From: Malacoraja senta
Lineage: Eukaryota
Reading direction: 5' to 3'
Assembly: GCA_038087875.1 (NCBI GenBank)
Contig: CM075995.1
Span: 8,000,001-8,064,000, forward strand
Length of the DNA stretch: 64,000 nucleotides
Made by a program: the position numbers and the translations under genes. Under the pieces are notes generated by a model. The model did no database searches and had not been told where the DNA came from. It saw nothing but the letters and a program-made list of their open reading frames with translations. Shown in pieces: positions 1 through 62,334 of this stretch (positions are counted from its first letter, which is position 1; each line of letters opens with the position of its first letter).

Positions 1-3000
1 CAATATGGCTTCCGTACTCTTCAGTCACAGTCACTTCCACTAATTGCCCTGCACGAAGATGGCAGCAGCCTCCCCTCAGTCAGTCACTTGATGCAAATGC
101 CCCACACCAAGATGGCTGCCTCAGTCACACTCACTCCCTGCTGATGCCCTGCAGTGTCGTTTGTGACCCCCACCCGGTCATACGGTGATGCCGGGTGGGA
201 CCGTGATGCTGGATGGGACGGTCGAGCCTGTGGGGAACGATGAAGGAAGAGAGGGGGGGGCAGGGCTGGGGGAGGGGAGTCACAGAGTCACACAGATTCA
301 CCACCCTCTGCCTAAAGAAATTCCTCTCCATCTCCTTTCTAAAGGAACGCCCTTTAATTCTGAGTATGCCTTCTGGACCGAGACTCTCCCACTAGTGGAA
401 ACATCCTCTCCACATCCACTCTATCCAAGCCTTTCACTATTCGGGAAAGTTTTAATGAGGACCCCCACCCCCTCCTCATTCTTCTAAACTCCAGCGAGTC
501 CAGGCCCAATGCAGACAAATGCTCATCGTACATTAACCCACTCATTCCTGGGATCGTTCTTGTGAACCTCCTCTGGACCCTCTGCAATGCCAAGCACATC
601 CTTCCCTCAGATATGGGACCCAAAACTGCTCACAATGGCCCATGTCCCTCTAAACCTGTCCTATCCATGTACCTGTCCAAGTATCTTTTAAACATTGCAA
701 TAGTCCCTGCCTCAACTACCTCTCCTCTGGCAGCTTGTTCCATACACCCACCCTCTATGTGGAAAAGTTACACTTCAGATACCTATGTTTCAGAAAGAAC
801 TGCAGATTCTGGAAAAATCGACGGTAGAAAAAACCTGGGAGAAACTCAGCGGGTGAGGCAGCATCTATGGAGCAAAGGAATAGGCGACGTTTCGGGTCGA
901 GACCTTTCTTCAGACTGAAGAAGGGTCAGTCTGAAGAATAGACAATAGGTGCAGTAGGCCATTCGCCTCTTCAAGCCAGCACCGCAATTCAATGTGATCA
1001 TGGCTGATCATCCACAATCAGTACCCCCGTTCCTGCCTTCTCCCCATATCTCCTGACTCCGCTATCTTTAAGAGCCCTATCAAGCTCTCTCTTGAAAGTA
1101 TCCAGAGAACCGGCCTCCACTGCCCCCTGAGGCAGAGAATTCCACAGACTCAAAACTCTCTGTGTGAAAAAGTTTCCTCATCTCTGTTCTAAATGCATTA
1201 CCCCTTATTCTTAAACTGTGGCACCTTGTTCTGGACTCCCCCAACATCCGGAATGGTCTCGACCTGAAACGTCTCCTGTTCCTTCACTCCATAGCTGCAT
1301 CGTCACCTGCTGAATTTCTGCAGCTTTTTTGTCTACCTCAGATTCCTATTAAATCTTTCCCCTTCACCTTAAACCTCTGGTCCTCGATTCCGCTCCTCTG
1401 GCAAAAGACTCTCTGCGTCTACCCGATCTATTCCTGTCATGATTTTGTACACCACTATAAGATCATCCCTCATCCTCATGTGCTCCAAGGAATAAAGTTA
1501 TAATGCACTATAACACATAATGCACCATAATACAATATAATACACTATGACACATGATTTTTAACACACCCAAATACAATATAACACACTATAATACAAA
1601 ATGTGGTTGATGCTCCTCACCAAGATGGTCGCCATCGCTACAAACGCCCCTCACCAATATGGCTTCCGTACTCTTCAGTCACAGTCACTTCCACTAATTG
1701 CCCTGCATGAAGATGGCAGCAGCCCCCCCTCAGTCAGTCACTTGATGCAAATGCCCCACACCAAGATGGCTGCCTCAGTCACACTCACTCCCTGCTGATG
1801 CCCTGCAGTGTCGTTTGTGACCCCCACCCGGTCATACGGTGATGCCGGGTGGGACCGTGATGCTGGGTGGGACGGTCGAGCCCGTGGGGAATGACTAAGG
1901 AAGAGAGGGGGGGCAGGGCTGGGGGAGGGGAGTCACAGAGTCACACAGATTCACCACCCTCTGCCTAAAGAAATTCCTCCCCATCTCCTTTCTAAAGGAA
2001 CACCCTTTAATTCTGAGACTATGCCTTCTGGTCCGAGACTCTCCCACGAGTGGAAACATCCTCTCCACATCCACTCTATCCAAGCCTTTCACTATTCTGG
2101 AAAGTTTTAATGAGGACCAGCCCCCCCTACCCCTCCTCATTCTTCTAAACTCCAGCGAGTCCAGGCCCAGTGCAGACAAACGCTCATCGTACATTAACCC
2201 ACTCATTCCTGGGATCGTTCTTGTAAACCTCCTCTGGACCCTCTGCAGGCACCCAAAACTGCTCACATTGGCCCATGTCCCTCTAAACCTCCTCTGGCAA
2301 AAGAGTATGGAAGCCATATTGGTGAGGGGCTGTCCAATCCATGTACCTATCCAAGTATCTTTTAAACGTTGCAATAGTCCCTGCCTCAACTACCTCCTCT
2401 GGCAGCTCGTTCCATACACCCACATTCTATGTGGAAAAGTTACACCTCAGATTCCTATGTTTCAGAAAGAACTGCAGATTCTGAAAAATCGAAGGTAGAA
2501 AAAACCTGGAGAAACTCAGTGGGTGAGGCAACATTTATGGAGCGAAGGAATAGGCGACGTTTCAGGTCGAGACCTTTCTTCAGACTGAAGAAGGGTCAGT
2601 CTGAAGAATAGACAATAGGTGCAGTAGGCCATTCGCCTCTTCGAGCCAGCACCGCCATTCAATGTGATCATGGCTGATCATCCACACAATCAGTTCCTGC
2701 TTCTCCCCATATCTCCTGACTCCGCTTCTTTACGAGCCCTATCAATCTCTCTCTTGAAAGTATCCAGAGAACTGGCCTCCACCACCCTCTGAGGCAGAGA
2801 ATTCCACAGTCTCACAACTCTCTGTGTGAAAAAGTGTTTCCTCATCTCTGTTCTCAATCCCTTATTCTTAAACTGTGGCCCCTTGTTCTGGACTCCGCCA
2901 ACATCGGTAAGGGTCTCAACCTGAAACGTCTCCTATTCCTTCGCTCCATTGATGCTGCCTCACCCGCTGAATTTCTCCAGATTTTTTGTCTACCTCAGAT

Positions 3001-3513
3001 TCCTTTTAAATTTTTCCCCTTCACCTTAAACGGATGTCCTCTGGTCCTTGATTCCCCTCCCCTGGCAAAAGACTCTGTGCGTCTACCCGATCTATTCCTG
3101 TCATGATTTTGTACAACTCTATAAGATCATCCCTCATCCTCATGTGCTCCAAGGAATAAAGTTATAATGCACTATAATACATAATTCACCATAATACAAT
3201 ATAATATATAATACACTATGACACATGATTTTTAACACACCCAAATACAATATAATACACTATAACACACCTTAACACAATATAACACACTATAATACAA
3301 TATAACACACTATATACAAAATGTGCTTGATGCCCCTCACCAAGATGGTCGCCATTGCTACAAACGCCCCTCACCAATATGGCTTCCATACTCTTCAGTC
3401 ACAGTCACTTCCACTAATTGCCCTGCAACAAGATGGCAGCAGCCTCCCCTCAGTCAGTCACTTGCTGCAAATGCCTCGCACCAAGATGGCTGCCTCAGTC
3501 ACACTCACTTCCC
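1..3513. repeat. Tandem triplication of a ~1.65-1.72 kb unit (third copy partial; first copy runs off the window)
   Basis: CAATATGGCTTCC(G/A)TACTCTTCAGTCACAG starts at 1, 1655 and 3375. Copies 1 and 2 carry the same CR1 3' fragments, Penelope-type fragment and TATAATACAC-type low-complexity tract. Confidence 0.92.
290..625 (-). mobile_element. CR1 LINE ORF2 3' fragment (paralog at ~1945-2250)
   Basis: Translation LQRVQRRFTRTIPGMSGLMYDEHLSALGLDSLEFRRMR...KGLDRVDVERMFPLVGESR matches the C-terminus of the intact CR1 ORF2 at 23915-26875. Confidence 0.9.
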
Positions 3514-3693
3514 ATTGATGCAATAGACAATAGGTGCAGGAGTAAGCCATTCAGCCCTTCGAGCCAGCACCGCCATTCAATGTGATCATGGCTGATCATC
3601 CCCAATCTGTACCCCGTTCCTGCCTTCTCCTCACATCCCCTGACTCCGCTCGTGTGCGGACGTGGCGCCGTTAGACGAGAAGCCGATGCAAAG

Positions 3694-3949
3694 AATTCAA
3701 AGCCAAAGAACCGAATGGAAATGAGGCCGAAATGCCAAATAACCGAAAGAGTACGAAGCCGAAATGCCAACAAACCGAAAGTATGGGACGCCTAAATGCA
3801 AACTAACCGAACGGGTGGGATGCCTAAAAGCCAACTAACCGAAAAGCTGCGTCGCCTAAAAGCAAACTCACTGAATGGCCGCTCTGTCTAAACGCCACCT
3901 ACCCGAAAGGCGGCGTCGCCTACAAGCCAACGAACCGAATGCCGCTCAA
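3694..3949. repeat. Eight-unit array with exact 32-bp period (about 22-nt semi-conserved core plus about 10 variable nt)
   Basis: Units start at 3694, 3726, 3758, 3790, 3822, 3854, 3886 and 3918. Core resembles GCCTAAAWGCCAACTAACCGAA. Confidence 0.9.
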
Positions 3950-4224
3950 CAGAAAAGTCAAATAACGGACATGACGTTGCCGGGGGGCGGGACTTGTCAG
4001 CGATTGGTCCAGACCCCCGCATCCATCACATCACTGTGGAGGGATGAACATTGTCCACACCTCCGCTCCACCTGACCCGCAGCCCGCGGAGGGTGGCCCT
4101 GGGATTGAGGGGGCTGTCCCGAGGAATGCCACCTTCGGCCGCTTACAACTTGGTGCTTGGGTTCAGATTGCCCAGTCACCTATGGCTTGTGTGGAAAAAT
4201 GACCCCCACGCTCCCGTCTCGGAA

Positions 4225-6070
4225 ATGTCAGTGATGCAGTTGAACAAAGGGGACTATGAAGGCATGAGGGAGGAGCTGGCCAAGGTCAACTGGAAAGGGA
4301 TCCTAGCAGGAATGACGGTGGAACAGCAATGGCAGGAATTTATGGGCATAATCCGGAAGACGCAGGATCATTTAATTCCAAAAAGGAAGAAAGATTCTAA
4401 GAGGAGTAGGAGGCAACTGTGGCTGACAATAGAAGTTAGGGATAGAATAAAACTTAAAGAAAAGATGTAAAACACAGCAAAGAATAGCCAGTAGCCAGAG
4501 GTTTGGGAAACTTTCATAGGACAACAGAAGGAAATAAAACGGGCAATACGGGCTGAAAAGATGAAGTACGAGGGGAAGCTGGCCAGGAATATAAAGGACA
4601 GGAAAAGCTTCTTTAGATATGTTAAGGGAAAAAGAATAGCAAAGTCAAATGTAGGTCCCTTGAAGGCAGACACGGGTGAAATTATTATGGGGAACAAGGA
4701 AATGGCAGAGGAGTTGAACAGGTACTTCGGATCTGTCTTCACTAAGGAAGACACAAACAATCTCCCAGAAGTACTGGAGGACAGAGGATCTAAGGGGGTA
4801 GAGGAACTGAAAGAAATTTTCATTAGGCGATAAATAGTATTGGGTAGGTTAATGGGACTGAAGGATGATAAATCTCCTGGGCCTGATGGTCTGCATCCCA
4901 GGGTCCTCAGGGAAGTGGCTCTAGAAATACTGGATGCATTGGTGATCATTTTCCAATGTTCAATAGATTCAGGATCAGTTCCTATGGATTGGAGGATAAC
5001 TAATGTTATCCCACTTTTCAAGAAAGGAGTGAGAGAGAAAACGGGGAATTACAGACCAGTTAGCCTGACTTCGGTGGTGGGAAAGATGCTGGAGTCAATT
5101 ATTAAAGAGGTAATAATGGGGCATTTGGATGCCCCCATTATTAGGACTAAAATGATTAGTCCAAGTCAGCATGGATTTATGAAAGGAAAATCATGCTCGA
5201 CTAATCTTCTGGAATTTTTTGAGGATGTGACAAGTAAAATGAATGAAGGGGAGCCAGTGGATGTAGTGTATCTAGACTTTCAGAAAGCCTTTGATAAGGT
5301 CCCGCATGGGAGACTGGTGACTAAAATTAGAGCACATGGTATTGGAGGTAGGGTGTTGACGTGGATAGAAAATTGGTTGGCAGACTGGAAGCAAAGAGTA
5401 GGAGTGAACGGGTCCTTTTCAGAATGTCAGGCAGTGGCGAGTGGAGTGCTGCAAGGCTCGGTGTTGGGGCCGCAACTGTTTACCATATATATTAATGATT
5501 TGGAAGAGGGAATTAGGAGCAACACTAGCAAGTTTGCGGATGACACAAAGCTGGGTGGCAGTGTGAACTGTGAAGAGGATGTTAGGAGGTTGCAGGGTGA
5601 CCTGGACAGGTTGAGTCAGTGGGCAGATGCGTGGCAGACGCAGTATAATATAGATAAATGTGAGGTTATCCACTTTGGCGGCAAAAACAAGGGGGCAGAT
5701 TATTCTCAATGGGGTTAGGTTAGGTAAGGGGGAGGTACAGAGAGACCTGGGTGTCCTTGTACACCAGTCATTGAAAGTTGGCGTGCAGGTACAGCAGGCA
5801 GTGAAGAAAGCTAATGGAATGTTGGCCTTCATAACAAGAGGATTTCAGTATAGGAGTAAAGAGGTTCTTCTGCAGTTGTATAGGGCTCTGGTAAAACCAC
5901 ATCTGGAGTATTGTGTATAGTTTTGATCTCCTAATTTGACGTAGGACATCCTTGTGATTGAGGCAGTGCAGCGTAGGTTCACGAGATTGATCTCTGCGAT
6001 GGCGGGACTGTCATATGAGGAAAGATTGAAAAGACTAGGCTTGTATTGTTTAGAAGGATGAGGGGGTATC
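4225..6070 (+). mobile_element. 5'-truncated CR1 LINE (ORF2 RT, with stops and frameshifts), left part
   Basis: KSPGPDGLHPRVL, NYRPVSLTSVVGK, YLDFQKAFDKVPH, QGSVLGPQLF and KFADDTKL motifs. Interrupted after GAGGGGGTATC by a Gypsy LTR. Confidence 0.95.
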
Positions 6071-6274
6071 TGTAAAGGATTGATAACGAGGCATCGTTAC
6101 TTTACTATCTTTATTCATACTGGATCATTATACATTGCACTAGCTGTACGTGGTCTGTCACAGGAACTAGAGAGCGATCTGTGGGTGGGGAGGTTGTAGT
6201 TATACTTGCGATATGGGGAGTGGTTAGTAGGTATGAGGTCACTATGTTAAAGGCACATGCATATCTCATCTACA
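6071..6274 (-). repeat. Gypsy 3' LTR (204 bp)
   Basis: TGTA...TACA termini. Preceded on the minus strand by the polypurine tract GGAGAGGAAGGA (6275-6286). Confidence 0.88.
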
Positions 6275-6343
6275 TCCTTCCTCTCCGAAACGACAGGCAA
6301 ATACAATGGTGACATGGCGACCACGGCTCATGCGCTAGGATAG

Positions 6344-8152
6344 CTAGGCAACATCGCCATAGCGGTCAGGCGGTTTGACAAGACGTCCCGCCCGGGTTCG
6401 CGTCTCGCCATCCACCCTTCCTGCAGGAGGAAGAGGCACCAGCGGGGACAGACGAACCTGAAAGGGAGAAACGGGAGGAAACGGAAGAGACCGCGGCACC
6501 GAAACTGGAGGGGATGCGGGGCTGGGACCGGGAAGAGCGCGGGGGGGCGAGCGAGGACTAGTCGGAGTGTGATGGAGCGGAGGGGGCGAAGGAGGAGCAG
6601 AGCGAGGCATGTCAGGAATCACGGGCAGGGCAACGGCCGGACGCGAAACAGGCAGCGGGGGAGCAAAGGGATCGGCGGCAGGAGGACGCGGCTCGTGGAC
6701 AAGCCGAAGGTGCTGGCGGGACCGTCGGTAAATGGTCCCAGCGTAGTCGACGAAATAGGACCTGGGCGACCCCGCAGAGCCGACGACAGTAGCGAGCTTG
6801 GAGTGACCGGGAGTGGTCTGCATACGGACTACTTGACCGGGGAAGAGGGGCGGCAGCGGGTGGCAGGACCTGTCATGGGACCGCTTTTGGACGTCGTGCC
6901 TGAAGGCAATTCGTTTCTGAACCGCCGCAGGTGGGAGGACCGAGGGTATGAGGGAGCGCTGGGCCACCGGGAGTGGGAGCCTGGTAGCGCGAGACAGGAG
7001 CCGCTGAGCAGGTGAACCCATGGCAGAGTCGCGGGAAATGTTCCGAAGGCTGAGGAGGGCCAGGTGGAAGTCGGAGTTAATGCCACCACACTGTTCCAAC
7101 AAGTGCTTAGCACTGCGGACCGCGCGCTCGGCCAAACCGTTGCTTTGCGGGTACTCCGGGCTGCTGGTGAAGTGGCGAAAGTTCCATCTGGAAGCGAACG
7201 CTTTAAACTCGGAGCTCGTGAACTGGCTGCCATTGTCCGACTGCAAGCTTGCCGGGGGGCCAAAAGTGCTAAAGTGAGGGTACAACCTGTCGATGACGGC
7301 CGAAGAGGTCAGGGAAGGCAGCCGGTCAACCACAAACCAGCTGGAGTAGGAGTCAACGAGTACCAGGAAATGTTTGCCCCGCCACTCGAAAATGTCTGTG
7401 GCGAGCACCATCCAGGGCAGTCCGGGCGCGGGCTGCTGTAGAAGCGGCTGACGCTGCTGATGGGGGGCGCGGCTGTTGCAGGTGGAACACGATGAGACCC
7501 TCTCCCGGATGTACTTGGCCATATCCGGCCAATAGAACTGGCTCTTGGCGAGAGACAAAGTGGCTTCGGCCCCAGTGTGACCGCGGTGTGCGACTTGAAA
7601 ATATCGGTCGTGCAGCGCCGCGGGCACGACCACTTTGTGACCCTTCACCACCACGCCGTCGTGCAATACGAGCTCGTCCCGAATCAGGAAGTAGGGCACG
7701 GCTCCAGCCGGCAGTGCCGAGCGACGGTCAGGCCAGCCCTGCCGGATGATGGCAGACAGCTGTTGCAGGGCAGGGTCGTTGGTAGTGTGTTCAACCAGGG
7801 ACTTCATCTGTGGCGAGGGGACGATGTTCAATCGTAGTACTAGTAACTCAGACATTTCGTATTGGTGGCGAGCAGTGGACGTCAGCGGGGCGCGAGACAA
7901 CGTGTCGGCTACGAACATGTCCTTCCCCTTACGATAAACCACCGTGAACGTGAAACGCTGGAGCTGCAGCAGCATGCGCTGCAGACGTGATGAGGCCACA
8001 TGGATCGGTTTGTTGAGGATGGTAACAAGTGGTTGATGGTCAGTTTCAACGGTGAAAGTGTTGCCCACGATGTAGTCCCGGAATTTGGAGCAGGCAAACA
8101 CCACGGCCAGTAGCTCCTCAATCTGCGCGTAGTGCTGTTCGGTGGCGGTCAT
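6344..8152 (-). CDS. Gypsy pol C-terminal part: RNase H end and integrase, open for 602 codons
   Basis: VETDHQPL, ADTLSRAP, HHCC zinc motif, VDSYS, SDNGSQFTS, SPEYPQSNGLAERAV, terminal TRAGRLVKPPDRY. Confidence 0.9.
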   Translation of the reverse strand: MTATEQHYAQIEELLAVVFACSKFRDYIVGNTFTVETDHQPLVTILNKPIHVASSRLQRMLLQLQRFTFTVVYRKGKDMFVADTLSRAPLTSTARHQYEMSELLVLRLNIVPSPQMKSLVEHTTNDPALQQLSAIIRQGWPDRRSALPAGAVPYFLIRDELVLHDGVVVKGHKVVVPAALHDRYFQVAHRGHTGAEATLSLAKSQFYWPDMAKYIRERVSSCSTCNSRAPHQQRQPLLQQPAPGLPWMVLATDIFEWRGKHFLVLVDSYSSWFVVDRLPSLTSSAVIDRLYPHFSTFGPPASLQSDNGSQFTSSEFKAFASRWNFRHFTSSPEYPQSNGLAERAVRSAKHLLEQCGGINSDFHLALLSLRNISRDSAMGSPAQRLLSRATRLPLPVAQRSLIPSVLPPAAVQKRIAFRHDVQKRSHDRSCHPLPPLFPGQVVRMQTTPGHSKLATVVGSAGSPRSYFVDYAGTIYRRSRQHLRLVHEPRPPAADPFAPPLPVSRPAVALPVIPDMPRSAPPSPPPLHHTPTSPRSPPRALPGPSPASPPVSVPRSLPFPPVSPFQVRLSPLVPLPPAGRVDGETRTRAGRLVKPPDRYGDVA

Positions 8153-8511
8153 GGTGCGGGACGCGAATGAGACAGGCAGCTGCAGGCCGTCATGGACCTG
8201 GAGGCAGGCGGCACCGAGTCCGAATTGAGAGGCGTCGCAGGTGAGGACAATGGGATGCTGCAGGTCAAAGAACTTGAGCGTGGGTGTGCTGATCAGTTTA
8301 GACTTAACAATGTCAAATGCCTTCTGATGATTGGGTAACCAAAGCCAGGAAGTGTCCTTTTTGATCAGATCCCTCAGGGGAGCGCTGAGCTCGCTGAGGT
8401 CGGGGATGGAACTTCCCCAGGTAGTTTACCAAGCCGAGGAAGCGTTGCAGGCTGCCACGTTAGTAGGAGGAGGCATCCCTGAGATGGCAGCCGTTTTCTG
8501 CGGGTCTGGCT

Positions 8512-9450
8512 TTAGCCCCTCAGCGGTGAATACATGTCCAACATAGGTACCTCCGAGACGCGGAATCGGCACTTCTTGGGGTTCAGTTTCAAGTTGATTT
8601 GCCTGGCCCGGTCCAGGATCAGGCGGAGGTTGACATCGTGTTCGGCAACATCCTTACCGTAAACGAGGATGTCGTCAACAATTATGGCGCAAGGCAGATC
8701 TGAAAACAACTGTTCCATGGTTCGCTGGAATACCTCACTGGCAGAGTTGATTCCGAAGGGCATTCGGAGGAACCGAAACCTTCCGTAGGGGGTGGCAAAG
8801 GTTGTCAAAATGGACGACCGCTCGTCCAGTGGTATCTGCCAGAATGAGCTTTTGGCATCGAGGACCGAAAAGACCGTTGCTGGACCAACCCGTGCAGCGA
8901 CGTCTTCCACCGTTCTCATAGGGTAGTGAGGGCGCCGAATGGCCAGGTTGAGGTCTCTGGGGTTGATGCAGATGCGTATCTCACTCATGTCCTTTTTAGC
9001 AGCAACAACCATGGAAGAGACCCAGCTGGTGGGCTCGACGACCGCCTTTAGGACGCCCATTTGTACCATACTGTGTAGGTTCGCCTCCACTTTGTCTCTC
9101 ATGGCGAAGGAAATACGGTGAGGAGCATGGACCACAGGAACGATCTTATGGTCCACTTCAATCTTGTAGCTGCAGGGTAGTTTGCCTAGCTTATCATCAA
9201 AGCGGTCGGGATACTCGGCCAGCGGGTCCATAAGAGCCTGCACGTGGTGGATGTCCCGGTGGAAGGACACCAGTCCCATTTCCTGGCATGCCTGGATCCC
9301 CAGCAGGGGAACGCATCTTCGATTGAGGAGAAAGAAGGTGAGGGGCCGAGTGGCCTTCAGTATCTTACAGTGTAGTGTGGCCTTGCCCACAGGAGTAAGG
9401 ATCTCCCCACCGTAGGCATGCAGGTTTGAGCTCAGAAAATATCTGCTCAT
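8512..9450 (-). pseudogene. Gypsy reverse transcriptase domain, frameshifted relative to protease and RNase H
   Basis: IRICINPRDLNLAI, FSVLDAKSSFWQIPL, FLRMPFGINSASEVFQ, IIVDDILVYG. Confidence 0.9.
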
Positions 9451-9564
9451 TAGTTCTTATCTGGTTGAAAAGGGATGTTGACATAACATTGGTAACCGCC
9501 CCAGTGTCGATTTTGGCCGTGAAGGTCGAGTTGTTCACAGTGACTTGCACAGAAGGATCCGTTA

Positions 9565-10148
9565 TCATAGCAGGTGCGTCCACCACGGTAAACAAGCTGG
9601 TTTCCCCTGAGAGGAGTTAGATGTAGGAACAGAATGTTCATCGGAATAGTGCTGGGAGCTGAGCTCATTATCCGACTGTAGAAGGTTGTTTAAATTTTGC
9701 CTTCGAGCAGCGACAGGCTTCCCACGGGAACGACAAGCTGCAGCAAAATGGTTCAACTTATTGCAGGAATTGCAATTCTTCCCTAGAGCAGGGCACACAT
9801 TGAACTGATGAGTTGTGAAGTTGCAATTAGGGCACCTTTGCTGGGTGCCTCCCCTTGTAGCATCACCGAACCCCTGGGCGCGTCCCCCTCGAGCAGCGAG
9901 CGACACCGGGGGTCGCGACTGGGGTGCGTTCATGAGATAGCTAGGAGTGCTGGCAAAGTTGATCGCCTGTTCAGCCGGCGGCGCCGCCGCGGAAACAGCG
10001 TCAGCTAAGCGAGTAGCGTGCATTGCATCGGCCAAGGTCAGATCCGGCTTGCGAAGTAGTTCGGACCTGAGCTTCTCATCACGGAGACCGTAAACCAGTA
10101 GGTCCCTGATGACATTATCGGGGGTCCACGTCTCGAGGCGGCAGCCTT
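9565..10148 (-). pseudogene. Gypsy gag C-terminal part with zinc knuckles
   Basis: IRDLLVYGLRDEKLRSELLRKPDLTL and two Cys/His knuckles. Confidence 0.85.
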
Positions 10149-13183: not shown

Positions 13184-15609
13184 TTTTTTTTTTTTTTTCT
13201 TATTACACAACATATATCTTAATACATTTTTTGTACCGCTTCGTTTTTTTGAGCTTTAAGAAAAAGATAGAAGTAAGGAAAGTAAAGAAAGTGCGCAAGA
13301 GTCGTGAAGTGCAAGAGAGTGTTGGGAAAAGAAAGCCCCTTAGAAAAGAAGTTAGAGAAGGAAGTAAAGTAAGAAAGTAGACCCTAGAAAAGAAAGAAAA
13401 AGAAAGTAGGAATAATCGCTCTATTATGACATTATACTCCGCAGAAAGGGGACTACCAACCAAGTCTGTTTTTGTTGTTTTACCTCCCATTACCAGGTCC
13501 TGATACCATTTATTTATTTATTTATTTTTAAAATTACTATTGCACCTCATGCTTGTAATAGGTCCAGAAACGTAGACCACGTCTTTTGGAATTGGTCTGC
13601 TTTACCTGCTAAGAGGAATCTCATCTCTTCCAGATGTAATGTTTCCAACATATTTGATGTCCACATTTTTATTGTTGGTGTGGGCGCATTTTTCCAGAAT
13701 TTAAGTATGAGCTTTTTTCCCATTATTAGCCCGTAATTGAATAAATTCTTCTGATACACGTTTAATTCAGGGATACCTTCCGATATTCCAAAAATGATCC
13801 ATTCTGGTTTTGGTACCAGTTTTATTTTAATTAATTTTGAAAAAATATCAAATATTTCATACCAGAATTTTTGTACAAATTGGTAGCTTCTTGACACAGA
13901 CATTTATCACAGATTGGTGAAACATTAGGAAAGATTTTATTTAATTTAGTTTTTGAATAATATAGTCCATGTAATGTTTTGAATTATTGTAATGTTTGGG
14001 ATAAATGATTATCCCAGCTCTCTTTTGAAATTTTTATAGCTAATTCTTGTTCCCAGTCTCTTCTAATTCTATCTGTTGTGGGTATTTCTATGTTTAAAAT
14101 GATATTATATAAGTACGATATTAGATTAGCTGATTCCGCCTTTGTCTTCATTGCTTCATCTAGTAAGTCGGAAGGCATATTATGATAGTCTTTTGTGTAT
14201 TTTTTCAGATAATCACGAATTTGTAGATATTTAAAATATTGGTTATTTTTTAAATTATATTTCAGTTGTAGTTGTTGAAATGATAGTAATTTTCCCAATT
14301 CATACAGATCTTCGAGCGTTTTGATTCCCATTCTTTCCCATTGTATAAATGATTTGTCTATGATTGATGGTTTAAACGATGGGTTATTGACTATTGGTAT
14401 TGAGAGAGATAGGTTTCTTAATTTTAGATTCTGTTTTATTTGTTTCCATGTTCTAATTGTGCTATATATAATTGGATTTTTATTATAATTTTTATTATTC
14501 AAATTTATTGGAGAGAGAATAATCGCTCCTATATTACTCGGGGAGCAGTCCCCTTTTTCCATTACAATCCAGTCCGCCTGCTGGGCAGAATTGTCCAGCA
14601 GGTGAATCATATTTTTAATATTTACTGCCCAATTATAATACATAAAGTTAGGTAGCGCTAGACCCCCCAACTCTTTTCGTTTATTAAGGTGTGCCCTTTG
14701 TATTCTATGGGATTTATAATCCCATATAAAATTTGTAATGTCTGAGTCCAATTTTTTGAAAAACTTTTTTGGGAGATATATAGGTATTGATTGAAATAGG
14801 TATAGAATTTGTGGTAAGAAAATCATTTTTATAGCATTTATTCTGCCTATTAAGGACATCGGAAGTGTTTTCCAGAATTTAATCAAATTATTTAATTTCT
14901 TAAGTAAGGGATTATAATTGGCTTTAAACATATCCTGGTAATTTCTAGTAATTTCAATTCCCAAATATTTGAATTTTTCTGTAGCTATTTTAAAGGGGAA
15001 TTTCCTGAGATGTGTTGAGTCTTTTGGTTTTATCGACATAATTTCACTTTTGTTCCAATTTATTCTATATCCTGAGAAGGATCCAAAGTCCTCAATTAAA
15101 TTTAATATATTTGGTATACTAATTTGTGGTTTTGTGATGTACAGTAGTACATCATCGGCATATAGGGATATTTTGTTATTTGAATATTTTGTATTATAAC
15201 CGTAAATATCCAGGTGTGTTCTTATTTTTTCAGCAAGGGGTTCAATTACCAAAGCAAATAACAGCGGTGATAATGAACATCCTTGTCTATTGCCCCTTGA
15301 TAGTTCAAATTTTCGAGGATAATATATTATTAGTTAGTATTCTAGCCGTAGGTTTGTTATATAATAGTTTTATCCATGCAATGAAGTTCTCTCCCAATTG
15401 GAATTTTTGCAATACTTTAATCATATAATCCCATTCTACTTGATCAAACGCTTTTTCTGCGTCCAGTGAGATGATAGATAACTCTTGGTCATGAGATTTA
15501 TGTGAGTGCATTATGTTAAGCAAACGTCTCAAATTATTGAATGAATGTCTCTTAGGTATAAATCCTGTTTGATCCTCATTTATTAGTCTACTAACATACC
15601 TGCTTAGTC
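13184..15609 (-). mobile_element. 5'-truncated L1 LINE (RT to poly-A)
   Basis: SLDAEKAFDQVEW, ISLYADDVLLY, GYRINWNKSE, IGRINAIKM motifs. Poly-T at 13182-13198. 53-bp flanking direct repeat. Confidence 0.95.
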
Positions 15610-23914: not shown

Positions 23915-26791
23915 CTAGGTCCATATCCCTGCCCTCTCCCCGTAGCCCCTTATCCCCTTGGCAGCTAAAAAACCATCTATTTTAGACTTAAATATATTTA
24001 ATGTTTCTGCTTCCACTGCTCCCTGGGGCAGTGAATTGCATAAATTAACCACCCTCTGGGTGAAGAAGTTCTTCCTCATCTCAGTTTTAAAAGAGCCCCC
24101 CCTTATTCTGCAACTATGTCCCCTAGTTCTAGTTTCCCCGATCATTGGGAACATCCTCGGTGCATCCACCCGATCAAGGCCCCTCACGATCTTATATGTT
24201 TCAATGAGATCGCCTCTCATTCTTCTAAACTCCAAAGAGTAGAGTTCCAGCCTACTTAACCTTTCCTCATATGTCAATCCCCTCATTGCAGGAATTAATC
24301 TTGTAAACCTTCGCTGCACTGCCTCCAGGGCCAGTACATCATTTCTTAAGTATGGACCCCAGAACTGTACACAGTATTCCAAATGTGGTCTCACTAATAC
24401 TGTGTACAGCTGCAGCAAGACCTCCGTGTTTTTATACTCAATCCCCCTAGCAATAAAGGCCAAAACTCCATTGGCCTTCCTGATAGCTTGCTGCACCTGC
24501 ATACTAACTTTTAGTGATTCATGTACTACTACCCCTAGATCCCTTTGCGTTGCATTACAGCGCAGCTCCTCCTCATTTAGAAAATAACTTGCCCTATCAT
24601 TTTTTTTCCCAAAGTGAATGACTTCACATTTATTAGTATTAAATTTCATCTGCCAAGTTGTTGCCCACTCACCTAGCTTATCTATATCCTTTTGCAGACT
24701 CTTCCTATCCTCCTCATCCCCTACTTTTCTTCCCATTTTTGTATCGTCCGCAAATTTTGATATATTACACTTGGTTCCCTCCTCCAAATCATTTATATAA
24801 ATTGTGAACAACTGGGGTCCCAGCACCGACCCTTGCGGAACCCCGCTAGTTACCGGTTGCCATCCCGAATATGAACCATTTATCCCCACTCTCTGCTTCC
24901 TATTTGTTAGCCAATCCTCTACCCATGCTAATATATTACCCCCAATCCCATAATTTTTTATTTTTAGCAATAGTCTCTTATGTGGCACCTTGTCAAAAGC
25001 CTTTTGGAAGTCCAAGTATACCACATCCACCGGTTCCCCTTTATCCACCCGGGTTGTTACTTCCTCAAAGAATTCGAGCAGATTCGTTAAACAGGACTTC
25101 CCCTTCACAAAACCATGCTGGTTCTGTCCGATGAAGTCATGTCCATCCAAGTGCCCCGTTAGTGTTTCTTTAATAATTGTCTCTAACATTTTACCCACCA
25201 CCGATGTTAGACTAACCGGTCTATAGTTACCCGCCTTCTGTTTACTTCCTTTTTTAAATATAGGTGTTACATTGGCCATTTTCCAATCCACTGGGACCGT
25301 TCCTGCCTCCAGGGAGTTTTGGAAAATTATCACCAATGCATCCACAATCCCCACCGCTATCTCCCTCAAGACCCTTGGATGTAATCCATCAGGCCCAGGG
25401 GATTTATCCTCCTTCAGTCTCATTAATTTCCCTAATACCACCTCCTTGGTGATCTTAATAGTATTTAGCTCCTCCATTCCTACCGCCCCCTGTTTATCCA
25501 GCGTTGGAATATTTTTTGTGTCTTCTATGGTGAAGACTGATACAAAATACTCGTTTAATGCCTTTGCCATTTCCATGTTCCCCACCAACAACTCTCCAGT
25601 CTCACCCTCCAATGGACCAACGTTCACCTTAGCCACCCTTTTTCTTTTTATATAGCTATAAAAACTCTTACTATTAGTTTTTATGTTGTTCGCTAAATTC
25701 CTTTCATAGTCTATTTTCCCCGTCTTAATTAATCTCTTAGTTATTTTTTGCTGACCTTTAAATGCTTCCCAATCCTCTACCCTCCCACTATCTCTGGCTA
25801 CCTTATATGCCCTTGCCTTCAGCCGAATACTATCCTTTATAGTTTTACTGAGCCATGGCTGACTGTTCTTACCCTTACCCCTTTTTTTCTTCATAGGAAT
25901 AAATTTTTCTTGAAGGTTATACAGTAGATCCTTAAACGTACACCACTGCTCATGTACCGTCTTATTCTTGAGTCTACTATCCCAGTCAACTTTGATCAGC
26001 TCAGTCCTCATACCTTCATAATCCCCTTTATTTAGACTAAGTACCCTAGCCTGAGTTTCAACCTGCTCCCCTTCTATTTGAATATGGAATTCGACCATAT
26101 TGTGGTCACTTGTTCCCAACGAGTCCCTAACTATGACATTTTTAATTAATCCTGCTTCATTACACAGGACCAGATCCAAGATTGCCTCCCCCCTTGTCGG
26201 TTCTGTGACATACTGTTCTAGGAACCCGTCTCTAATACATTCTATAAACTCTTCCTCTAGTTTACCCTGCCCAGTTTGGTTTGCCCAATTAATATGAAAA
26301 TTGAAGTCCCCCATGATTACAGCAGTTCCCTTTTTACATGCGTCAACTATTTGCAGATTTATGTTCTGACTAACAGCGTCACAGCTATTTGGAGGTCTAT
26401 AAATTACACCCACTAGTGTTTTTTTCCCCTTGTTATTCTCTATCTGTACCCAAGCTGTTTCACTATCCTGATCCTTCAACGCAATATCCTTCCTCTCTAT
26501 TGCCGTTATTCCCTCCCTTATTAAAAGGGCCACCCCTCCTCCCTTTCTTTCCTGTCTATTTTTTCGAATTGTCGAGTACCCCTCTATATTTAACTCCCAG
26601 TCCTGATCCCCTTGCAGCCATGTCTCCGTAATGGCCACGATATCATAACTATATATACTTAATTGCACCGTTAATTCATTTATCTTATTTCGAATACTCC
26701 GTGCATTTAGATACAGCACTTTCAGATGATTTTTACTACCCTTCCTTTCTGTTTTTGCCTCTTTTACATCTAGAGCTTTATCTTCACACAT
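23915..26791 (-). CDS. CR1 ORF2: APE endonuclease plus reverse transcriptase (first ATG at 26791; frame open from the GTG at 26875)
   Basis: YLNARS, ITETWL, YRPP, MGDFN, LDLVL and SDH endonuclease motifs; DFQKAFD, PQGSVLGP and FADD RT motifs; no internal stops. Confidence 0.96.
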   Translation of the reverse strand: MCEDKALDVKEAKTERKGSKNHLKVLYLNARSIRNKINELTVQLSIYSYDIVAITETWLQGDQDWELNIEGYSTIRKNRQERKGGGVALLIREGITAIERKDIALKDQDSETAWVQIENNKGKKTLVGVIYRPPNSCDAVSQNINLQIVDACKKGTAVIMGDFNFHINWANQTGQGKLEEEFIECIRDGFLEQYVTEPTRGEAILDLVLCNEAGLIKNVIVRDSLGTSDHNMVEFHIQIEGEQVETQARVLSLNKGDYEGMRTELIKVDWDSRLKNKTVHEQWCTFKDLLYNLQEKFIPMKKKRGKGKNSQPWLSKTIKDSIRLKARAYKVARDSGRVEDWEAFKGQQKITKRLIKTGKIDYERNLANNIKTNSKSFYSYIKRKRVAKVNVGPLEGETGELLVGNMEMAKALNEYFVSVFTIEDTKNIPTLDKQGAVGMEELNTIKITKEVVLGKLMRLKEDKSPGPDGLHPRVLREIAVGIVDALVIIFQNSLEAGTVPVDWKMANVTPIFKKGSKQKAGNYRPVSLTSVVGKMLETIIKETLTGHLDGHDFIGQNQHGFVKGKSCLTNLLEFFEEVTTRVDKGEPVDVVYLDFQKAFDKVPHKRLLLKIKNYGIGGNILAWVEDWLTNRKQRVGINGSYSGWQPVTSGVPQGSVLGPQLFTIYINDLEEGTKCNISKFADDTKMGRKVGDEEDRKSLQKDIDKLGEWATTWQMKFNTNKCEVIHFGKKNDRASYFLNEEELRCNATQRDLGVVVHESLKVSMQVQQAIRKANGVLAFIARGIEYKNTEVLLQLYTVLVRPHLEYCVQFWGPYLRNDVLALEAVQRRFTRLIPAMRGLTYEERLSRLELYSLEFRRMRGDLIETYKIVRGLDRVDAPRMFPMIGETRTRGHSCRIRGGSFKTEMRKNFFTQRVVNLCNSLPQGAVEAETLNIFKSKIDGFLAAKGIRGYGERAGIWT

Positions 26792-26898
26792 TCTGGATCC
26801 TCCTGTCACATTTTGATTTTCCGTTTCCCCACTGATACCCTGCTCTATTTCCTCTACCCCTGCTGTTATTACCACCCTTGATACCTCCCCCCCGCTAC

Positions 26899-27861
26899 TT
26901 AGTTTAAAGACCTCTCTACTGCCCTAGTTATATGATTTGCCAGGACCCCAGTCCCAGCACCGTTCAGGTGAAGTCCGTCCTTACAGAACAGATCCCCCCT
27001 GTCCCAGTACTGGTGCCAGTGGCCCAAGAAACCAAACCCATTTTTCCCACACCAGTCTTTGAGCCACGCATTCAGCTTTTTAATTTTACTTACTCTCGCT
27101 GATTTGGCCCGTGGCTCAGGTAGCAATCCGGAGATCAGTACCCTCGAGGTTCTGCTTTTTAATTTATTCCCTAACTGCTCAAACTCCTTCAGCAGATCCT
27201 CCTTCCTCGTCCTTCCTATGTCATTGGTCCCCACATGGACCACGACCACTGGATCCTCCCCCTCCCTCTGCAAATTTCTCTCCAGCATCGCAGAGATATC
27301 CTTAACCCTAGCACCGGGTAGGCAACACAGCCTTCGGGACATGTTCTGCTGGCCGCAGAGAACCTTATCTACCCCCCGAATAATACTATCCCCTATCACA
27401 ACGGCATTTCTTCTAACTCCCCCCTCTTGAATGTCCCCCTGATCCACGGTGCTGCAGCCAGGTTGCTCATCCCTCCCACAGCCCCTGATCCCGTCCTCAC
27501 ATTGAGTAAGAGCCTCGGTCATGCTCGTCAGGAACAAGGGCTGTGGCTCCTGCCGCATCTCCTCCTGGTTCCCCCTACCTGCCTCGCTTATGGCCACACC
27601 TTCCTTTCCTTGCTCACTCACTACTGAATTAGTTAAACTGGTCGGTGTGACCATCCCCTGGCACAAAACATCCAGGTAATACTCCCCCTCCCTGATGTAC
27701 CGCAGCGTATGAAGTTGGGTCTCCATCTCCTCAATGCGGAGCTCGAGTTCCGCTAGCCTCAAACACTTACTGCAGCTGTAGGGATCATCTACACCATCTA
27801 CATCAATGGTGTCGACAAATTCCCACATCTCACAGTATTGGCACATCTCCTGGCCGCCCAT
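26899..27861 (-). CDS. CR1 ORF1: zinc finger, coiled coil and SGNH esterase domain
   Basis: CQYC...CSKC, leucine-rich heptads, VVIGDSIIRG, HVGTND and DGLHL motifs. Confidence 0.94.
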   Translation of the reverse strand: MGGQEMCQYCEMWEFVDTIDVDGVDDPYSCSKCLRLAELELRIEEMETQLHTLRYIREGEYYLDVLCQGMVTPTSLTNSVVSEQGKEGVAISEAGRGNQEEMRQEPQPLFLTSMTEALTQCEDGIRGCGRDEQPGCSTVDQGDIQEGGVRRNAVVIGDSIIRGVDKVLCGQQNMSRRLCCLPGARVKDISAMLERNLQREGEDPVVVVHVGTNDIGRTRKEDLLKEFEQLGNKLKSRTSRVLISGLLPEPRAKSARVSKIKKLNAWLKDWCGKNGFGFLGHWHQYWDRGDLFCKDGLHLNGAGTGVLANHITRAVERSLN

Positions 27862-28891
27862 CTTATATAAGTAAATAACTGGTCCTATTTAAGAATCCCC
27901 TACCCGGATTACTATATTGATACACCCCTTATTTATATAATCCTACCTCCTATTGATACACCCCTTATTTATATAATCCTACCTCCTATAAATGGGAAAG
28001 TACTCACCCCAGCCGTAAATTACCTACTGGTTTGGCTGTCTAGTAGTAATTCCGTCCGCTCTTCCTGTCTGGTCCACTGCTCCCTTGCAGTGCGTGGCAA
28101 ACCTCTTAGCCTCTGTTAGCCTCTCGAGCCGCGGCTCCGTCCTTCCTCCCTCGGCGACAGCCCGGGCCGCACCATATACATGGAAGTAAGCTCTCCTGAA
28201 TTACTCAAACGGTTCAGGGTGGCGTCTTCACTTTGGGCCTTCCGCACTCAGCGCCACCTCTCCACTAAGCGGAAATGACGCAATCAGCGCCACTTCTCCA
28301 CTAAGCGGAAATGACGGAAACCTTCTTAACCAAAAAGTGCTGGAGAAACTCAGCGGGTGAGGCAGAAGGGATGATTTTCTCAGCAGTCAAGCACCAGTTG
28401 TGAAATCAGAATCAGTTAATGTTTTGAGGGTTGGGGGGTTTGGGGAGCATGGCTGATTAAAATTGGTTTGACCATTGGGGTTGTACTACTTGCAGTGGCA
28501 ATCATGTTGTGCTGTGTTTTCCCCTGTATTAAGTCTCTCCTGGTGAAAGCTACTGTGAAGCAACTGCCAATGATAACGGGTGAAGACGAATCTGGCCCTC
28601 AAGGAAAGTGGACCTCGATGATAGAATACTACTACAATGGAGTAGAAGTGTTAGGAAAATGTTAAACGAAGTCTGTAAGGGAAACTGGATCCTTTTTTCC
28701 TGCCTCACGTAATGGGGGTGGGTTTTTGGCCAGTTTCTCAGGGAGCCGGAGAAAGAACGCTACACAGCATTAAGCAAACTTAATTAAAAGAGCCTGCATT
28801 TTAGGGCTCTATGGGTAATTTGACCTGGGGGATGTGTGTGTGGTTTTCTTTGTCTTTTGACAATCGGTGGGAGTCTCAGAGGAGGGAGTTA

Positions 28892-40848: not shown

Positions 40849-43800
40849 TCACACTAATACTTAAAAAAGACAAAGATATAGAAGAACCGGGTTCATATAG
40901 AGCTATAGCATTGTTAAATACAGATCAAAAAATATTAGCGAAAACATTAGCTAGAAGATTAAGTAAATATATTAGTAAACTAATACACCCAGATCAGACG
41001 GGGTTTATCCCCAAGAGATATTCATCTAATAATATGAGACGTCTACTCAATATAATGCACTCACATAAATTTGAAGAACAAGAATTATCAATTATTTCGC
41101 TGGACGCTGAAAAAGCATTTGACCAAGTAGAATGGAATTATATGGATAAAGTATTACAAAAATTCCAACTGGGAGAGAATTTTATTTTATGGATTAAACT
41201 ATTATATAATAAACCTACAGCTAGAATATTAACTAATAACATATTATCCTCGAAATTTCAACTATCAAGGGGAAATAGACAAGGATGCTCATTATCACCA
41301 CAGTTGTTTGCTCTCATAATTGAACCGTTAGCAGAAAAAAATAGAACACATCCACATATCCATGGGTATAATACTAAATATTCAAATAATAAAATATCTT
41401 TATACGCGGATGATATATTATTATACATTACAAAACCTCAAATTACTATACCAAATATATTAAATTTAATTGAGGACTTTGGATCTTTTTCTGGATACAG
41501 AATAAATTGGAATAAAAGTGAAATTATGTCAATAAAACCGAAAGACTCAACACATCTTTTAAAATTCCCTTTTAAAATAGCTACAGAAAAATTTAAATAC
41601 TTGGTCTTGAAATCACTAGAACATATCAAGGCATGTTTATTATTATTTTTTTTAAATTATTTTTATTAGAAGTATGGTAAATTACAGTAATACACACTTA
41701 TATCTTAATACATTTTTTATACCGCTTCATTTTTTGAGCTTTAAGAGAAAGATAGAAGTAAGAAAAGTAAAGAAAGTGCGCAAGAGTCGTGAGGTGCAAG
41801 AGAGTTTTGTGAAAAGAAAGCCCCTTAGAAAAGAAGTTAGAGAAGGAAGTAAAGTAAGAAAGTAGATCCTAGAAAAGAAAGAAAAAGAAAGTAGGAACAA
41901 TCGCAGAAAGGGAACCACCAACCAAGTCTGTTTTTATTGTTTTACCTCCCATTACCAGGTCCTGATACCATTTCTTTATTTCTTTATTTTTTAAATTACT
42001 ATTGCACCTCATGCTTGTAATAGGTCCAAAAAGGTAGACCACGTCTTTTGGAATTGGTCTGCTTTCCCTGCTAAGAGGAATCTCATCTCTTCCAGATGTA
42101 ATGTTTCCAACATATTTGATGTCCACATTTTTATTGTTGGTGTGGGCGCATTTTTCCAGAATTTAAGGATGAGCCTTTTTCCCATTATTAGCCCGTAATT
42201 GAATAAGTTCTTCTGATACACGTTTAATTCAGGGATACCTTCCGAAATTCCAAAAATGATCCATTCTGGTTTTGGTACCAGTTTTATTTTAATTAATTTT
42301 GAGAAAATATCAAATATTTCATACCAGAATTTTTGGATTTTTGTACAAAAAACAAAATAATGCGCTATGGTAGCTTCTTGACATAGACATTTATCATAGA
42401 TTGGTGAAACATTAGAAAGATTTTATTTAATTTAGTTTTTGAATAATATAGTCTATGTAATGTTTTGAATTGGATGAGCGTATGTCGTACGTTGATCGAA
42501 CATTTATGCACGTGTAGTAAGTGGTTATCCCAGCTCTCTTTTGAAATTTTTATAGCTAATTCTTGTTCCCAGTCTCTTCTAATTCCTTCTGTTGTGGGTA
42601 TTTCTATGTTTAAAATGATATTATATAAGTACGATATTAGATTAGCTGATTCCGCCTTTGTCTTCATTGCTTCATCTAGTAAGTCGGGAGGCATATTATG
42701 ATAGTCTTTTGTGTATTTTTTCAGGTAATCATGAATTTGTAGATATTTAAAATATTGATTATTTTTCAGATTATATTTCAGTTGTAGTTGTTGAAATGAT
42801 AGTAATTTTCCCAATTCATACAGATCTTCGAGCGTTTTGATTCCCATTCTTTCCCATTGTATAAATGATTTGTCTATGGTTGAAGGTTTAAACGATGGGT
42901 TATTAACTATTGGTATTGAGAGAGATAGGTTTCTTAATTTTAGATTCTGTTTTATTTGTTTCCATGTTCTAATTGTGCTATTTATAATTGGGTTTTTATT
43001 ATAATTTTTATTATTCAAATTTATTGGAGAGAGAATAATCGCTCCTATATTACTCGGGGAACAGTCCCCTTTTTCCATTATAATCCAGTCCACCTGCTGG
43101 GCAGAATTGTCCAGCAGGTGAATCATATTTTTAATATTTACTGCCCATTTATAATACATAAAGTTAGGGAGCGCGAGACCCCCCAACTCTTTTCGTTTAT
43201 TAAGGTGTGCTCTTTGTATTCTATGGGATTTATAATCCCATATAAAATTTGTAATGTCTGAGTCCAATTTTTTGAAAAACTTTTTTGGGAGATATATAGG
43301 TATTGATTGAAATAGGTATAGGATTTGTGGTAAGAAAATCATTTTTATAGCATTTATTCTGCCTATTAAGGACATCGGAAGTGTTTTCCAGAATTTAATC
43401 ATATTATTTAATTTCTTAAGTAAGGGATTATAATTGGCTTTGAACATATCCTGGTAATTTCTAGTAATTTCAATTCCCAAATATTTGAATTTTTCTGTAG
43501 CTATTTTAAAGGGGAATTTCCTGAGGTGTGTTGAGTCTTTTGGTTTTATCGACATAATTTCACTTTTGTTCCAGTTTATTCTATATCCTGAAAAGGATCC
43601 AAAGTCCTCAATTAAATTTAATATATTTGGTATACTAATTTGTGGTTTTGTGATGTACAATAGTACGTCATCGGCATATAAGGATATTTTGTTATTTGAA
43701 TATTTTGTATTATAACCGTAAATATCCATGTGTGTTCTTATTTTTTCAGCAAGGGGTTCAATTACTAAAGCAAATAACAGCGGTGATAATGAACATCCTT

Positions 43801-45440: not shown

Positions 45441-45489
45441 CGACTAATCCCCTCACCTCTACGATACCTCACGACGACACCTGACACCT

Positions 45490-52655: not shown

Positions 52656-52689
52656 TACGACACCTCACGACGACACCTGACACCTGACA

Positions 52690-62331: not shown

Positions 62332-62334
62332 TAA

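What the first reader, a model, noticed from the sequence alone, without database searches (positions are those of the whole stretch)
3694..4020. Strictly 32-bp-phased array of conserved cores with unrelated 10-nt spacers next to a GC-box/CCAAT module
Seen: eight units with no indel. A ~22-nt core GCC(G/T)AAA(T/A)GCCAACTAACCGAA is followed by largely dissimilar 10-mers (TGGAAATGAG, AGAGTACGAA, AGTATGGGAC, CGGGTGGGAT, AAGCTGCGTC, TGGCCGCTCT, AGGCGGCGTC, TGCCGCTCAA). Each unit holds two CC(G/T)AA half-sites 16 bp apart. Length is kept while sequence diverges, unlike the ordinary minisatellites here, and 32 bp is about three helical turns. GGGCGGG and ATTGG follow at ~3985-4007. Inference: a phased protein-binding array, most plausibly the subterminal transposase-binding region of an unclassified DNA transposon. 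No partner end or transposase is visible in the window.
Basis: partly seen in the sequence, partly recalled or inferred. Interest (0 to 1): 0.7.

Follow-up and report, generated by a model that had tools for sequence, protein, structure and literature searches.

The report
Foldback transposon arm in skates
The evenly spaced 32-base array is real, but it is one arm of a common, gene-less jumping DNA element in a skate genome, not a CRISPR-like system; it would matter mainly if the enzyme that moved it proves to be of the Mutator kind, which one survey could not confirm in vertebrates.

Summary
The array is real: eight 32-bp units (3694-3949), cores 77% alike, spacers 37.5% alike, with variation clustered beyond chance. 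The spacers are related to each other, not unrelated (chance is 27%; the u5 and u7 spacers match 8/10). The host is a skate.

The stretch 3651-4220 is a dispersed, many-copy repeat. Runs of 8 coded organisms hold about half its words, and 7,932-9,690 contigs per DNA run lie along it, in register across the spacers. It starts sharply at 3651, inside a CR1 3' end. In 3 of 3 DNA runs the arm end (4036) also joins the reverse complement of 4220. The family is therefore arm, ~190-bp loop, inverted arm: a Foldback-type non-autonomous DNA transposon. A CR1 replaces this copy's right arm.

The repeats are most likely transposase-binding sites, by analogy with Muta1 and Galileo (inferred). No target-site duplication or transposase could be obtained, so the superfamily is open; Mutator (Phantom/Muta) is about 50%. 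Dfam and Repbase could not be checked. Verdict: new member of a known kind, modest interest.

The parts
3521..3650 (-). 3' end of a CR1 LINE, cut off exactly where the element begins (insertion site, left flank)
   Evidence: Aligns with five other CR1 3' ends of the window up to 3650; all five continue with CR1 sequence where this one switches
3651..4036 (+). Left arm (long terminal inverted repeat, 386 bp) of a Foldback-type non-autonomous DNA transposon
   Evidence: Long contigs of three runs start at 3651 with unlike flanks; joint 4036/4220 on opposite strands in 3 of 3 DNA runs; arm depth 1.3-1.9 times loop depth. The full length of the partner arm is inferred, not seen.
3651..3693 (+). 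Terminal segment, beginning with 7 nt (CGTGTGC) followed by GGAC
   Evidence: Sequence; terminus
3694..3949 (+). Eight 32-bp subterminal units: 22-nt core with two CC(G/T)AA half-sites 16 bp apart plus a 10-nt diverged spacer; inferred transposase-binding array
   Evidence: spacers fixed by position among copies
3949..3970 (+). Ninth, degenerate unit, offset by 31 bp
   Evidence: Core matrix score 8.4 bits against 28.9-36.6 for units 2-8, the training set
3971..4036 (+). Inner end of the arm with TGACGT, GC-box (3985) and inverted CCAAT (4003); possible inward-facing promoter of an autonomous parent (inferred)
   Evidence: Sequence; motif names recalled; among the highest-depth bins of the arm
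4037..4220 (+). Internal non-coding loop (~190 bp with 7 more letters seen in other copies)
   Evidence: Loose ends behind 4036 equal 7 letters plus the reverse complement of 4220-4198 (22 of 23 letters in run X6); contigs also cross 4036-4037 in the window's orientation (table 8); no Pfam hit
4219..6071 (+). 5'-truncated CR1 ORF2 standing where the right arm should be (2-nt overlap at the junction); interrupted by a Gypsy element near 6075-10143 and ending near 10528
   Evidence: CR1 protein similarity starts at 4219; loose ends before 4219/4222 are upstream CR1 sequence; Pfam RVT_1, RNase H, rve; self-comparison

Best explanation
The array is the subterminal repeat region of one arm of a Foldback-type (type 2) non-autonomous DNA transposon, a MITE of roughly 0.96 kb (386-bp arm, ~190-bp loop, inverted arm), abundant in skates. 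Shown: many dispersed copies, a sharp end at 3651, an inverted partner at the inner boundary, position-fixed spacers, and loss of the right arm in this copy. Inferred: a cut-and-paste transposase encoded elsewhere bound the repeated cores at both ends. Selection on the master element kept the core letters and the 32-bp register (about three helical turns; half-sites 1.5 turns apart), while the unbound 10-mers drifted after the units arose by tandem duplication (last a 64-bp step). Each inserted copy then decayed neutrally. The GC-box/CCAAT end is probably the inward-facing promoter that the arms gave an autonomous parent. The likeliest mobiliser is a FLYWCH-MULE (Phantom/Muta) transposase, about 50%; that part is not shown.
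For: 15 of 22 listed runs, from 8 coded organisms, hold 44-53% of the sampled words. 7,932, 9,690 and 9,606 contigs of three DNA runs lie on 3620-4260 with depth in all 30 bins; median depth on the element is 0.27-0.41 of the CR1 3'-end bin. Eight long gap-free pieces cross 5-6 spacers each at 81-87% identity (picked from the 32 pieces shown). Variant shares correlate r=0.97-0.985 among three organisms, so the expansion looks shared. The left boundary is sharp against 5 of 5 CR1 copies. One contig in each of three runs starts at 3651, and the two loose ends listed there agree only 0.58. The joint 4036/4220 on opposite strands is in 4, 10 and 13 contigs, its loose ends match the reverse complement of the loop's far end, and arm:loop depth is 1.66, 1.93, 1.31. 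Joints skipping 63-65, 96 and 107-109 nt suggest unit number varies in some copies, as in Tm1 and Muta1 derivatives. 7 of 15 differences from the family majority are CpG transitions, and they are not rarer in cores (9/176 against 6/80, P=0.57): neutral decay after insertion. Analogues with tested binding: Muta1 (PMC5499845) and Galileo (PMC3688188). A 7-nt end plus GGA plus tandem repeats is the Tm1 layout (PMC3169594).
Against: No target-site duplication and no complete two-armed copy was seen; contigs at the joint show only 32-58 letters on the shorter side. No transposase is linked to these ends: none in the window, and no cartilaginous fish or other vertebrate is named among 45 relatives of a FLYWCH-MULE query (most are unnamed, so this is weak). 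The likeness to the Muta1 12-mer (8/12) is chance-level (P=0.60) and reads in the opposite direction from the end. Dupeyron et al. 2019 found no confirmed vertebrate MULE transposase (PMC6446971). Summed contig depth is not a copy number. Only 40 of 206 variant rows and 15 of 208 joints were displayed.
Confidence: 0.82

Rival explanations
1. Same Foldback anatomy, but moved by a non-Mutator transposase (P/Galileo-type THAP, Zisupton, Tc1/mariner with expanded arms, or an undescribed group). This rival concerns the superfamily only.
For: Foldback structure arose separately in MULE, P and Tc1/mariner elements (PMC3169594 Discussion). Galileo has 0.5-1.2 kb arms with internal binding repeats. TcMar elements are expanded in skates (PMC12361510). 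No vertebrate MULE transposase was confirmed or found here.
Against: The end reads CG-, not the CA- recalled for P elements or CAG- recalled for Tc1 (from memory). The window's own Tc1-like element (61541-62332) has unrelated ends. Ten of 12 long-arm mosquito MULE families carry short subterminal tandem repeats (PMC5225508).
Confidence: 0.4
2. A one-armed dispersed element (5' promoter region of a LINE, LTR piece, or Helitron/DINE-like element with internal tandem repeats) whose internal segment is inverted in a subfamily.
For: The inverted partner is directly seen for only 32-58 nt. The GC-box/CCAAT module is promoter-like. Other continuations behind 4220 exist in run X6 (80 loose ends, agreement 0.57).
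Against: Both junction orientations share the same boundary (4036) in 3 of 3 DNA runs. Arm depth is 1.3-1.9 times loop depth. The CR1 to the right is 5'-truncated in mid-ORF2 and has its own upstream sequence in the loose ends.
Confidence: 0.1
3. A single-locus decayed minisatellite.
For: One copy in the window; spacers are related, with a 64-bp duplication signal; lack of indels is only marginally significant.
Against: Thousands of distinct contigs per run cover array, promoter-like end and loop in register, in several organisms, with a fixed start. Core/spacer contrast P=0.0006.
Confidence: 0.02
4. A CRISPR-like or otherwise spacer-acquiring array with locus-variable spacers.
For: Constant-length spacers between conserved cores.
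Against: Spacers are 10 nt, related to one another (P=1e-4), and the same at the same position in other copies and organisms. No Rfam hit, no special folding (z=+1.0), no nuclease-type gene nearby other than LINE domains.
Confidence: 0.01

Closest known systems
Muta1 of Aedes aegypti (FLYWCH-MULE, Phantom group; type 2 Foldback) and its non-autonomous derivatives (PMC5225508, PMC5499845)
   Same: Long inverted arms made of a terminal motif plus 8-9 tandem subterminal units with conserved cores and variable linkers; short non-coding interior in derivatives; unit number varies. In Muta1 all arm-to-arm differences fall in the linkers, and the repeats raise transposase binding and excision.
   Different: Here the unit is 32 bp with two half-sites and a 10-nt linker (Muta1: 12 bp plus 3-4 bp); the arm is 386 bp (Muta1: 145); no significant sequence likeness (P=0.60); vertebrate host; duplication length and transposase unknown.
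Tm1 of root-knot nematodes (Phantom-like Mutator/Foldback; PMC3169594)
   Same: 7-nt terminal motif, then GGA, then tandem repeats, then a conserved inner motif; mostly MITE-like copies.
   Different: Tm1 units are ~14 bp and follow GGA directly; here ~33 bp lie between GGA and the array. Tm1's two ends differ and carry 9-bp duplications, neither of which could be tested. The GGA match is 3 letters and may be chance.
Galileo of Drosophila (P superfamily, Foldback-like; PMC3688188)
   Same: Long arms with internal tandem repeats that carry secondary transposase-binding sites.
   Different: Arms 0.5-1.2 kb; THAP transposase; no evidence here for a P-type end.
Decayed FLYWCH-MULE element in locus L062
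   Same: Inverted ends with GGAC after a short terminal motif and a 7-8-mer repeated at 15-33 bp, with a 34-bp direct-repeat family, flanking a MULE transposase remnant (tblastn E=2e-51 to P0046).
   Different: Different repeat word and host; an architectural analogue only, one case, found by a motif search aimed at MULEs.

Membership tests
Foldback type 2 / MITE (structural class) | Long terminal inverted repeats | tested here: met
   Inverted partner of the arm's inner end in 3 of 3 DNA runs; arm:loop depth 1.3-1.9. Seen directly for 32-58 nt only; full length inferred.
Foldback type 2 / MITE (structural class) | Tandem subterminal repeats inside the arm | tested here: met
   Eight 32-bp units plus a degenerate ninth, 43 bp from the end
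Foldback type 2 / MITE (structural class) | Many dispersed copies with a fixed end and unlike flanks | tested here: met
   the flank evidence rests on three long contigs and two loose ends
Foldback type 2 / MITE (structural class) | Short, non-coding interior | tested here: met
   ~190-bp loop, no Pfam hit
Foldback type 2 / MITE (structural class) | Target-site duplication | not testable with these tools
   Right end missing in the window; no genome held; contigs too short
Mutator/MULE (Phantom, Muta, Tm1) | 8-10 bp target-site duplication | not testable with these tools
   No two-ended copy available
Mutator/MULE (Phantom, Muta, Tm1) | MULE DDE transposase (with FLYWCH or SWIM) between the same ends | tested here: inconclusive
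   None in the window; no vertebrate name among 45 relatives of P0046, most unnamed; an autonomous copy elsewhere could not be searched
Mutator/MULE (Phantom, Muta, Tm1) | Sequence likeness to a known MULE subterminal repeat | tested here: not met
   Only Muta1 was tested: 8/12, P=0.60. Not a strict family requirement, since MULE families differ widely.
Mutator/MULE (Phantom, Muta, Tm1) | Short terminal motif followed by GGA and repeats (Tm1 layout) | tested here: inconclusive
   Present at 3651-3660 but three letters only; the other end was not seen
P superfamily / Galileo | THAP transposase and P-type ends | tested here: inconclusive
   No THAP hit in the window; end reads CG-; the P-type end is recalled, and one copy may be mutated
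Zisupton | 8-bp duplication and Zisupton transposase | not testable with these tools
   8-bp duplication per PMC12730594; no two-ended copy or ORF available
CRISPR-like array | Unrelated, locus-variable spacers | tested here: not met
   Spacers related and position-fixed

The most novel reading that the evidence does not exclude
This is the MITE of a true Phantom/Muta-type Mutator lineage that invaded skates and expanded to thousands of copies before several skate species split. It would be a clear case of MULE transposition in a jawed vertebrate, which a 2019 survey lists as an open question, and each copy would carry a GC-box/CCAAT module on both arms.
Probability: 0.4. Interest if true: 0.55.

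Novelty: new member of a known kind. Interest (0 to 1): 0.33.

Why it matters
As it stands it is a well-defined repeat family in a group whose genomes are dominated by LINEs and poor in annotated DNA transposons (0.93% in Amblyraja radiata per bioRxiv 10.64898/2026.10.27.761883); useful for repeat libraries, not surprising in kind. It would matter more if the target-site duplication and parent transposase are Mutator-type: Dupeyron et al. 2019 ask whether MULEs are really absent from vertebrates and reject the vertebrate entries they examined, and one look at a skate assembly would test that. The two-half-site, three-turn register is also a clean natural substrate for asking how Foldback arms array transposase subunits.

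Tried and rejected
No whole genome is held, so copies, the duplication and the parent could not be searched directly.

Exact-pattern scans for the core or the inner arm found nothing in viral contigs, metagenome contigs (23, 28) or prokaryote genomes (39). A loose 16-bp-phase pattern gave 60 viral loci. None matches the arm by BLAST, and their best core score is 13.8 bits against 28.9-36.6 for array units: unrelated. The 13.6-bit hit at window 21614 is a lone word without array.

Rfam: 0 hits. Single-strand folding is no better than shuffles. The bacterial promoter scan is irrelevant and empty. Likeness to the Muta1 repeat was rejected as chance.

Hunt for a skate MULE: a motif scan gave 12 loci, 1 of them a MULE remnant. 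Its fragment found nothing by word index and 10 proteins by HMMER, 5 with MULE or FLYWCH domains. The best full-length one gave 45 relatives, none named as a vertebrate.

Transcription: run X16 is only guessed to be RNA and is contigs; its element depth is 0.004 of the CR1 end, and it gives no verdict.

Literature: the core motif is in no full text on either strand. Searches on skate/shark plus MULE or Foldback terms listed no paper describing this family. Subscription journals, Repbase Reports, Dfam and most supplements were out of reach, and the Phantom paper (PMC2927773) is not held. Earlier scan notes: nothing by sequence or place; 8 notes on other organisms by words, none bearing.

An adenovirus/Polinton-type terminal repeat was considered because of GCCAA, GC-box and TGACGT words, and dropped: the end is not the AG-type recalled for Polintons and the words are short.

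Full report
Context. The window is eukaryotic and dense in retroelements: CR1-type, L1-type and Gypsy reverse transcriptases (Pfam; clade names are my reading). The one host gene exon found (62701-63078) is 90% identical to an Amblyraja radiata protein and at most 68% to other rays and sharks, so the host is a skate. No whole genome is held.

The observation. Eight units stand in strict 32-bp register from 3694. Cores are 77% alike pairwise and spacers 37.5%. The variable columns cluster in one 10-column block more than column permutation allows (P=0.0006), and more than uniform-rate decay from one consensus gives (0 of 3000 simulations at matched overall identity; 0.008 at a higher rate). CC(G/T)AA occupies 12 of 16 in-phase positions. 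Three corrections are needed. The spacers are related: 37.5% against 27% by composition (P=1e-4), u5/u7 share 8/10, and the 64-bp lag is as strong as the 32-bp lag. Unit 1 lacks its first half-site, and a degenerate ninth unit follows at 31 bp. The absence of indels is only weakly beyond chance given the window's own indel-to-substitution ratio of 0.089. GC-box and ATTGG are where stated, but such pairs occur 4 times in the window.

It is a many-copy dispersed family. Of 22 runs listed, 15 from 8 coded organisms hold 44-53% of the sampled words. I laid 4 of them, three DNA-type runs from three organisms and one guessed RNA run. 7,932, 9,690, 9,606 and 291 contigs mapped, covering all 30 bins. 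Median summed depth on the element is 0.27-0.41 of that on the adjacent CR1 3' end in the DNA runs. The tool warns that this is no copy number; set against depths of 20-50 for most single long contigs it hints at thousands of copies, as an order of magnitude only. Eight long gap-free pieces, chosen from the 32 displayed, cross 5-6 spacers each at 81-87% identity. Variant shares at the 26 displayed array positions correlate at r=0.97-0.985 among the three organisms.

Anatomy. The left end is 3651. The preceding 130 bp are a CR1 3' end, and 5 of 5 other CR1 copies compared continue differently at that base. A long contig in each of three runs starts at 3651 with 32-135 non-matching letters beyond, and the two loose ends listed there agree only 0.58. 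The inner boundary is 4036. In all three DNA runs contigs join 4036 to 4220 on opposite strands (4, 10, 13 contigs), and 56-93 loose ends per run behind 4036 read as 7 letters followed by the reverse complement of the loop's far end (22 of 23 letters in X6). Other contigs cross 4036-4037 as in the window. Both ends of the loop thus abut the same arm sequence, which is what an arm-loop-inverted arm element gives; arm-to-loop depth ratios of 1.66, 1.93 and 1.31 fit two arms per loop. The partner arm is seen directly for only 32-58 letters, so its full length and the total of about 0.96 kb are inferred. In this copy a 5'-truncated CR1 starts at 4219 and no second arm exists in the window. Low-depth joints that skip 63-65, 96 or 107-109 nt, and one deletion form joining 3814 to 4144, show derivatives with fewer units (15 of 208 joints displayed).

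How it most likely works. Muta1 of Aedes has a terminal motif plus nine 12-bp repeats with variable linkers; more repeats give more transposase complexes and more excision (PMC5499845, passages; primer table; its Figure S2 is an image I could not read). [quoted passage not shown] By analogy, the 22-nt cores are binding sites and the 10-mers unbound linkers of constrained length; 32 bp is 3.05 turns and 16 bp is 1.52 turns. The contrast was set in the master element, not at this locus: 7 of 15 differences from the family majority are CpG transitions, and they fall in cores and spacers alike (P=0.57; displayed rows only). MULE arms contain promoters (PMC6446971, section 6 part 1), so the TGACGT/GC-box/CCAAT end is plausibly the parent's inward promoter; this is inference, and the one RNA-like run gives no verdict. 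Binding, phasing dependence and promoter activity are all untested.

Which superfamily. Non-autonomous elements are classed by ends and duplication length (PMC4455052, passages), and I could see one end and no duplication. For Mutator: 10 of 12 long-arm Aedes MULE families have subterminal tandem repeats (PMC5225508, passages). The 7-nt-plus-GGA start recalls Tm1 (PMC3169594, passages and Discussion part 1), and a MULE remnant found here (L062) has a similar layout. Against: the GGA match is three letters; the likeness to the Muta1 repeat is chance-level; Foldback arms also occur in P and Tc1/mariner elements; no transposase of this kind is in the window (482 of 482 frames; tblastn best E=0.03); and none of 45 relatives of a FLYWCH-MULE query is named as a vertebrate, though most carry no name. 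I put Mutator at about 50%.

Novelty. The kind of element is known. I found no description of this family: the core motif is absent from the searchable full texts, and five term searches listed no such paper. Passages of three skate or ray genome papers mention repeat classes only (PMC12361510, PMC9605692, bioRxiv 10.64898/2026.10.27.761883); their repeat libraries and supplements were not seen and may well contain it as an unclassified family. Passages of PMC5753468, PMC9659126 and PMC12730594 added background only. The Phantom paper was not available and is cited second-hand. Dfam and Repbase could not be queried. The one route to higher interest is the open question in PMC6446971 of whether MULEs are absent from vertebrates.

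Verdict.

Noticed in passing
window 1-3520: Tandem duplication of a 1.65-1.72 kb unit (87% identical, two units and a part) carrying four CAAGATGGC words (YY1-like, recalled) spaced 34, 54 and 53 nt; it ends where the CR1 3' end at 3521 begins.
   Followed up: no
window 6075-10143: Gypsy-type LTR element on the minus strand (RT, RNase H, integrase, protease fragments) nested in the CR1 that replaces the right arm.
   Followed up: partly
window 23918-27888: Near-complete CR1 on the minus strand with an open 1002-aa ORF2 and a GDSL-esterase ORF1.
   Followed up: no
window 61541-62332: Small element with 128-bp inverted ends and a helix-turn-helix fragment, Tc1-like by my reading, unrelated to the array's ends.
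   Followed up: partly
window 62701-63078: First exon of a 2-hydroxyacid dehydrogenase (2-ketogluconate reductase-like) gene; used to place the host.
   Followed up: yes
window 45440-50310 and 52636-57562; 13201-15486 and 41688-44001: A 4.9-kb duplication (93%) and a 2.3-kb L1-like duplication (94%).
   Followed up: no
window 3812-3821: With the family's majority letters the unit-4 spacer itself reads as a GC-box like the one at 3985 (table 3).
   Followed up: no
window 4148-4191: Part of the loop has depth as high as the arm's peak in all three DNA runs; may be a mapping effect or a segment shared with other derivatives.
   Followed up: no
L003, L009, L011 and about 20 similar loci, at the match: A family of phage contigs shares a four-fold 16-bp-phased CCGAA array with partly palindromic units, operator- or iteron-like; unrelated to this finding.
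   Followed up: no
L062 1640-3341: Decayed FLYWCH-MULE with Foldback-like ends sitting beside a virus-like reading frame in a viral-collection contig, which suggests host DNA with an endogenous viral piece.
   Followed up: partly
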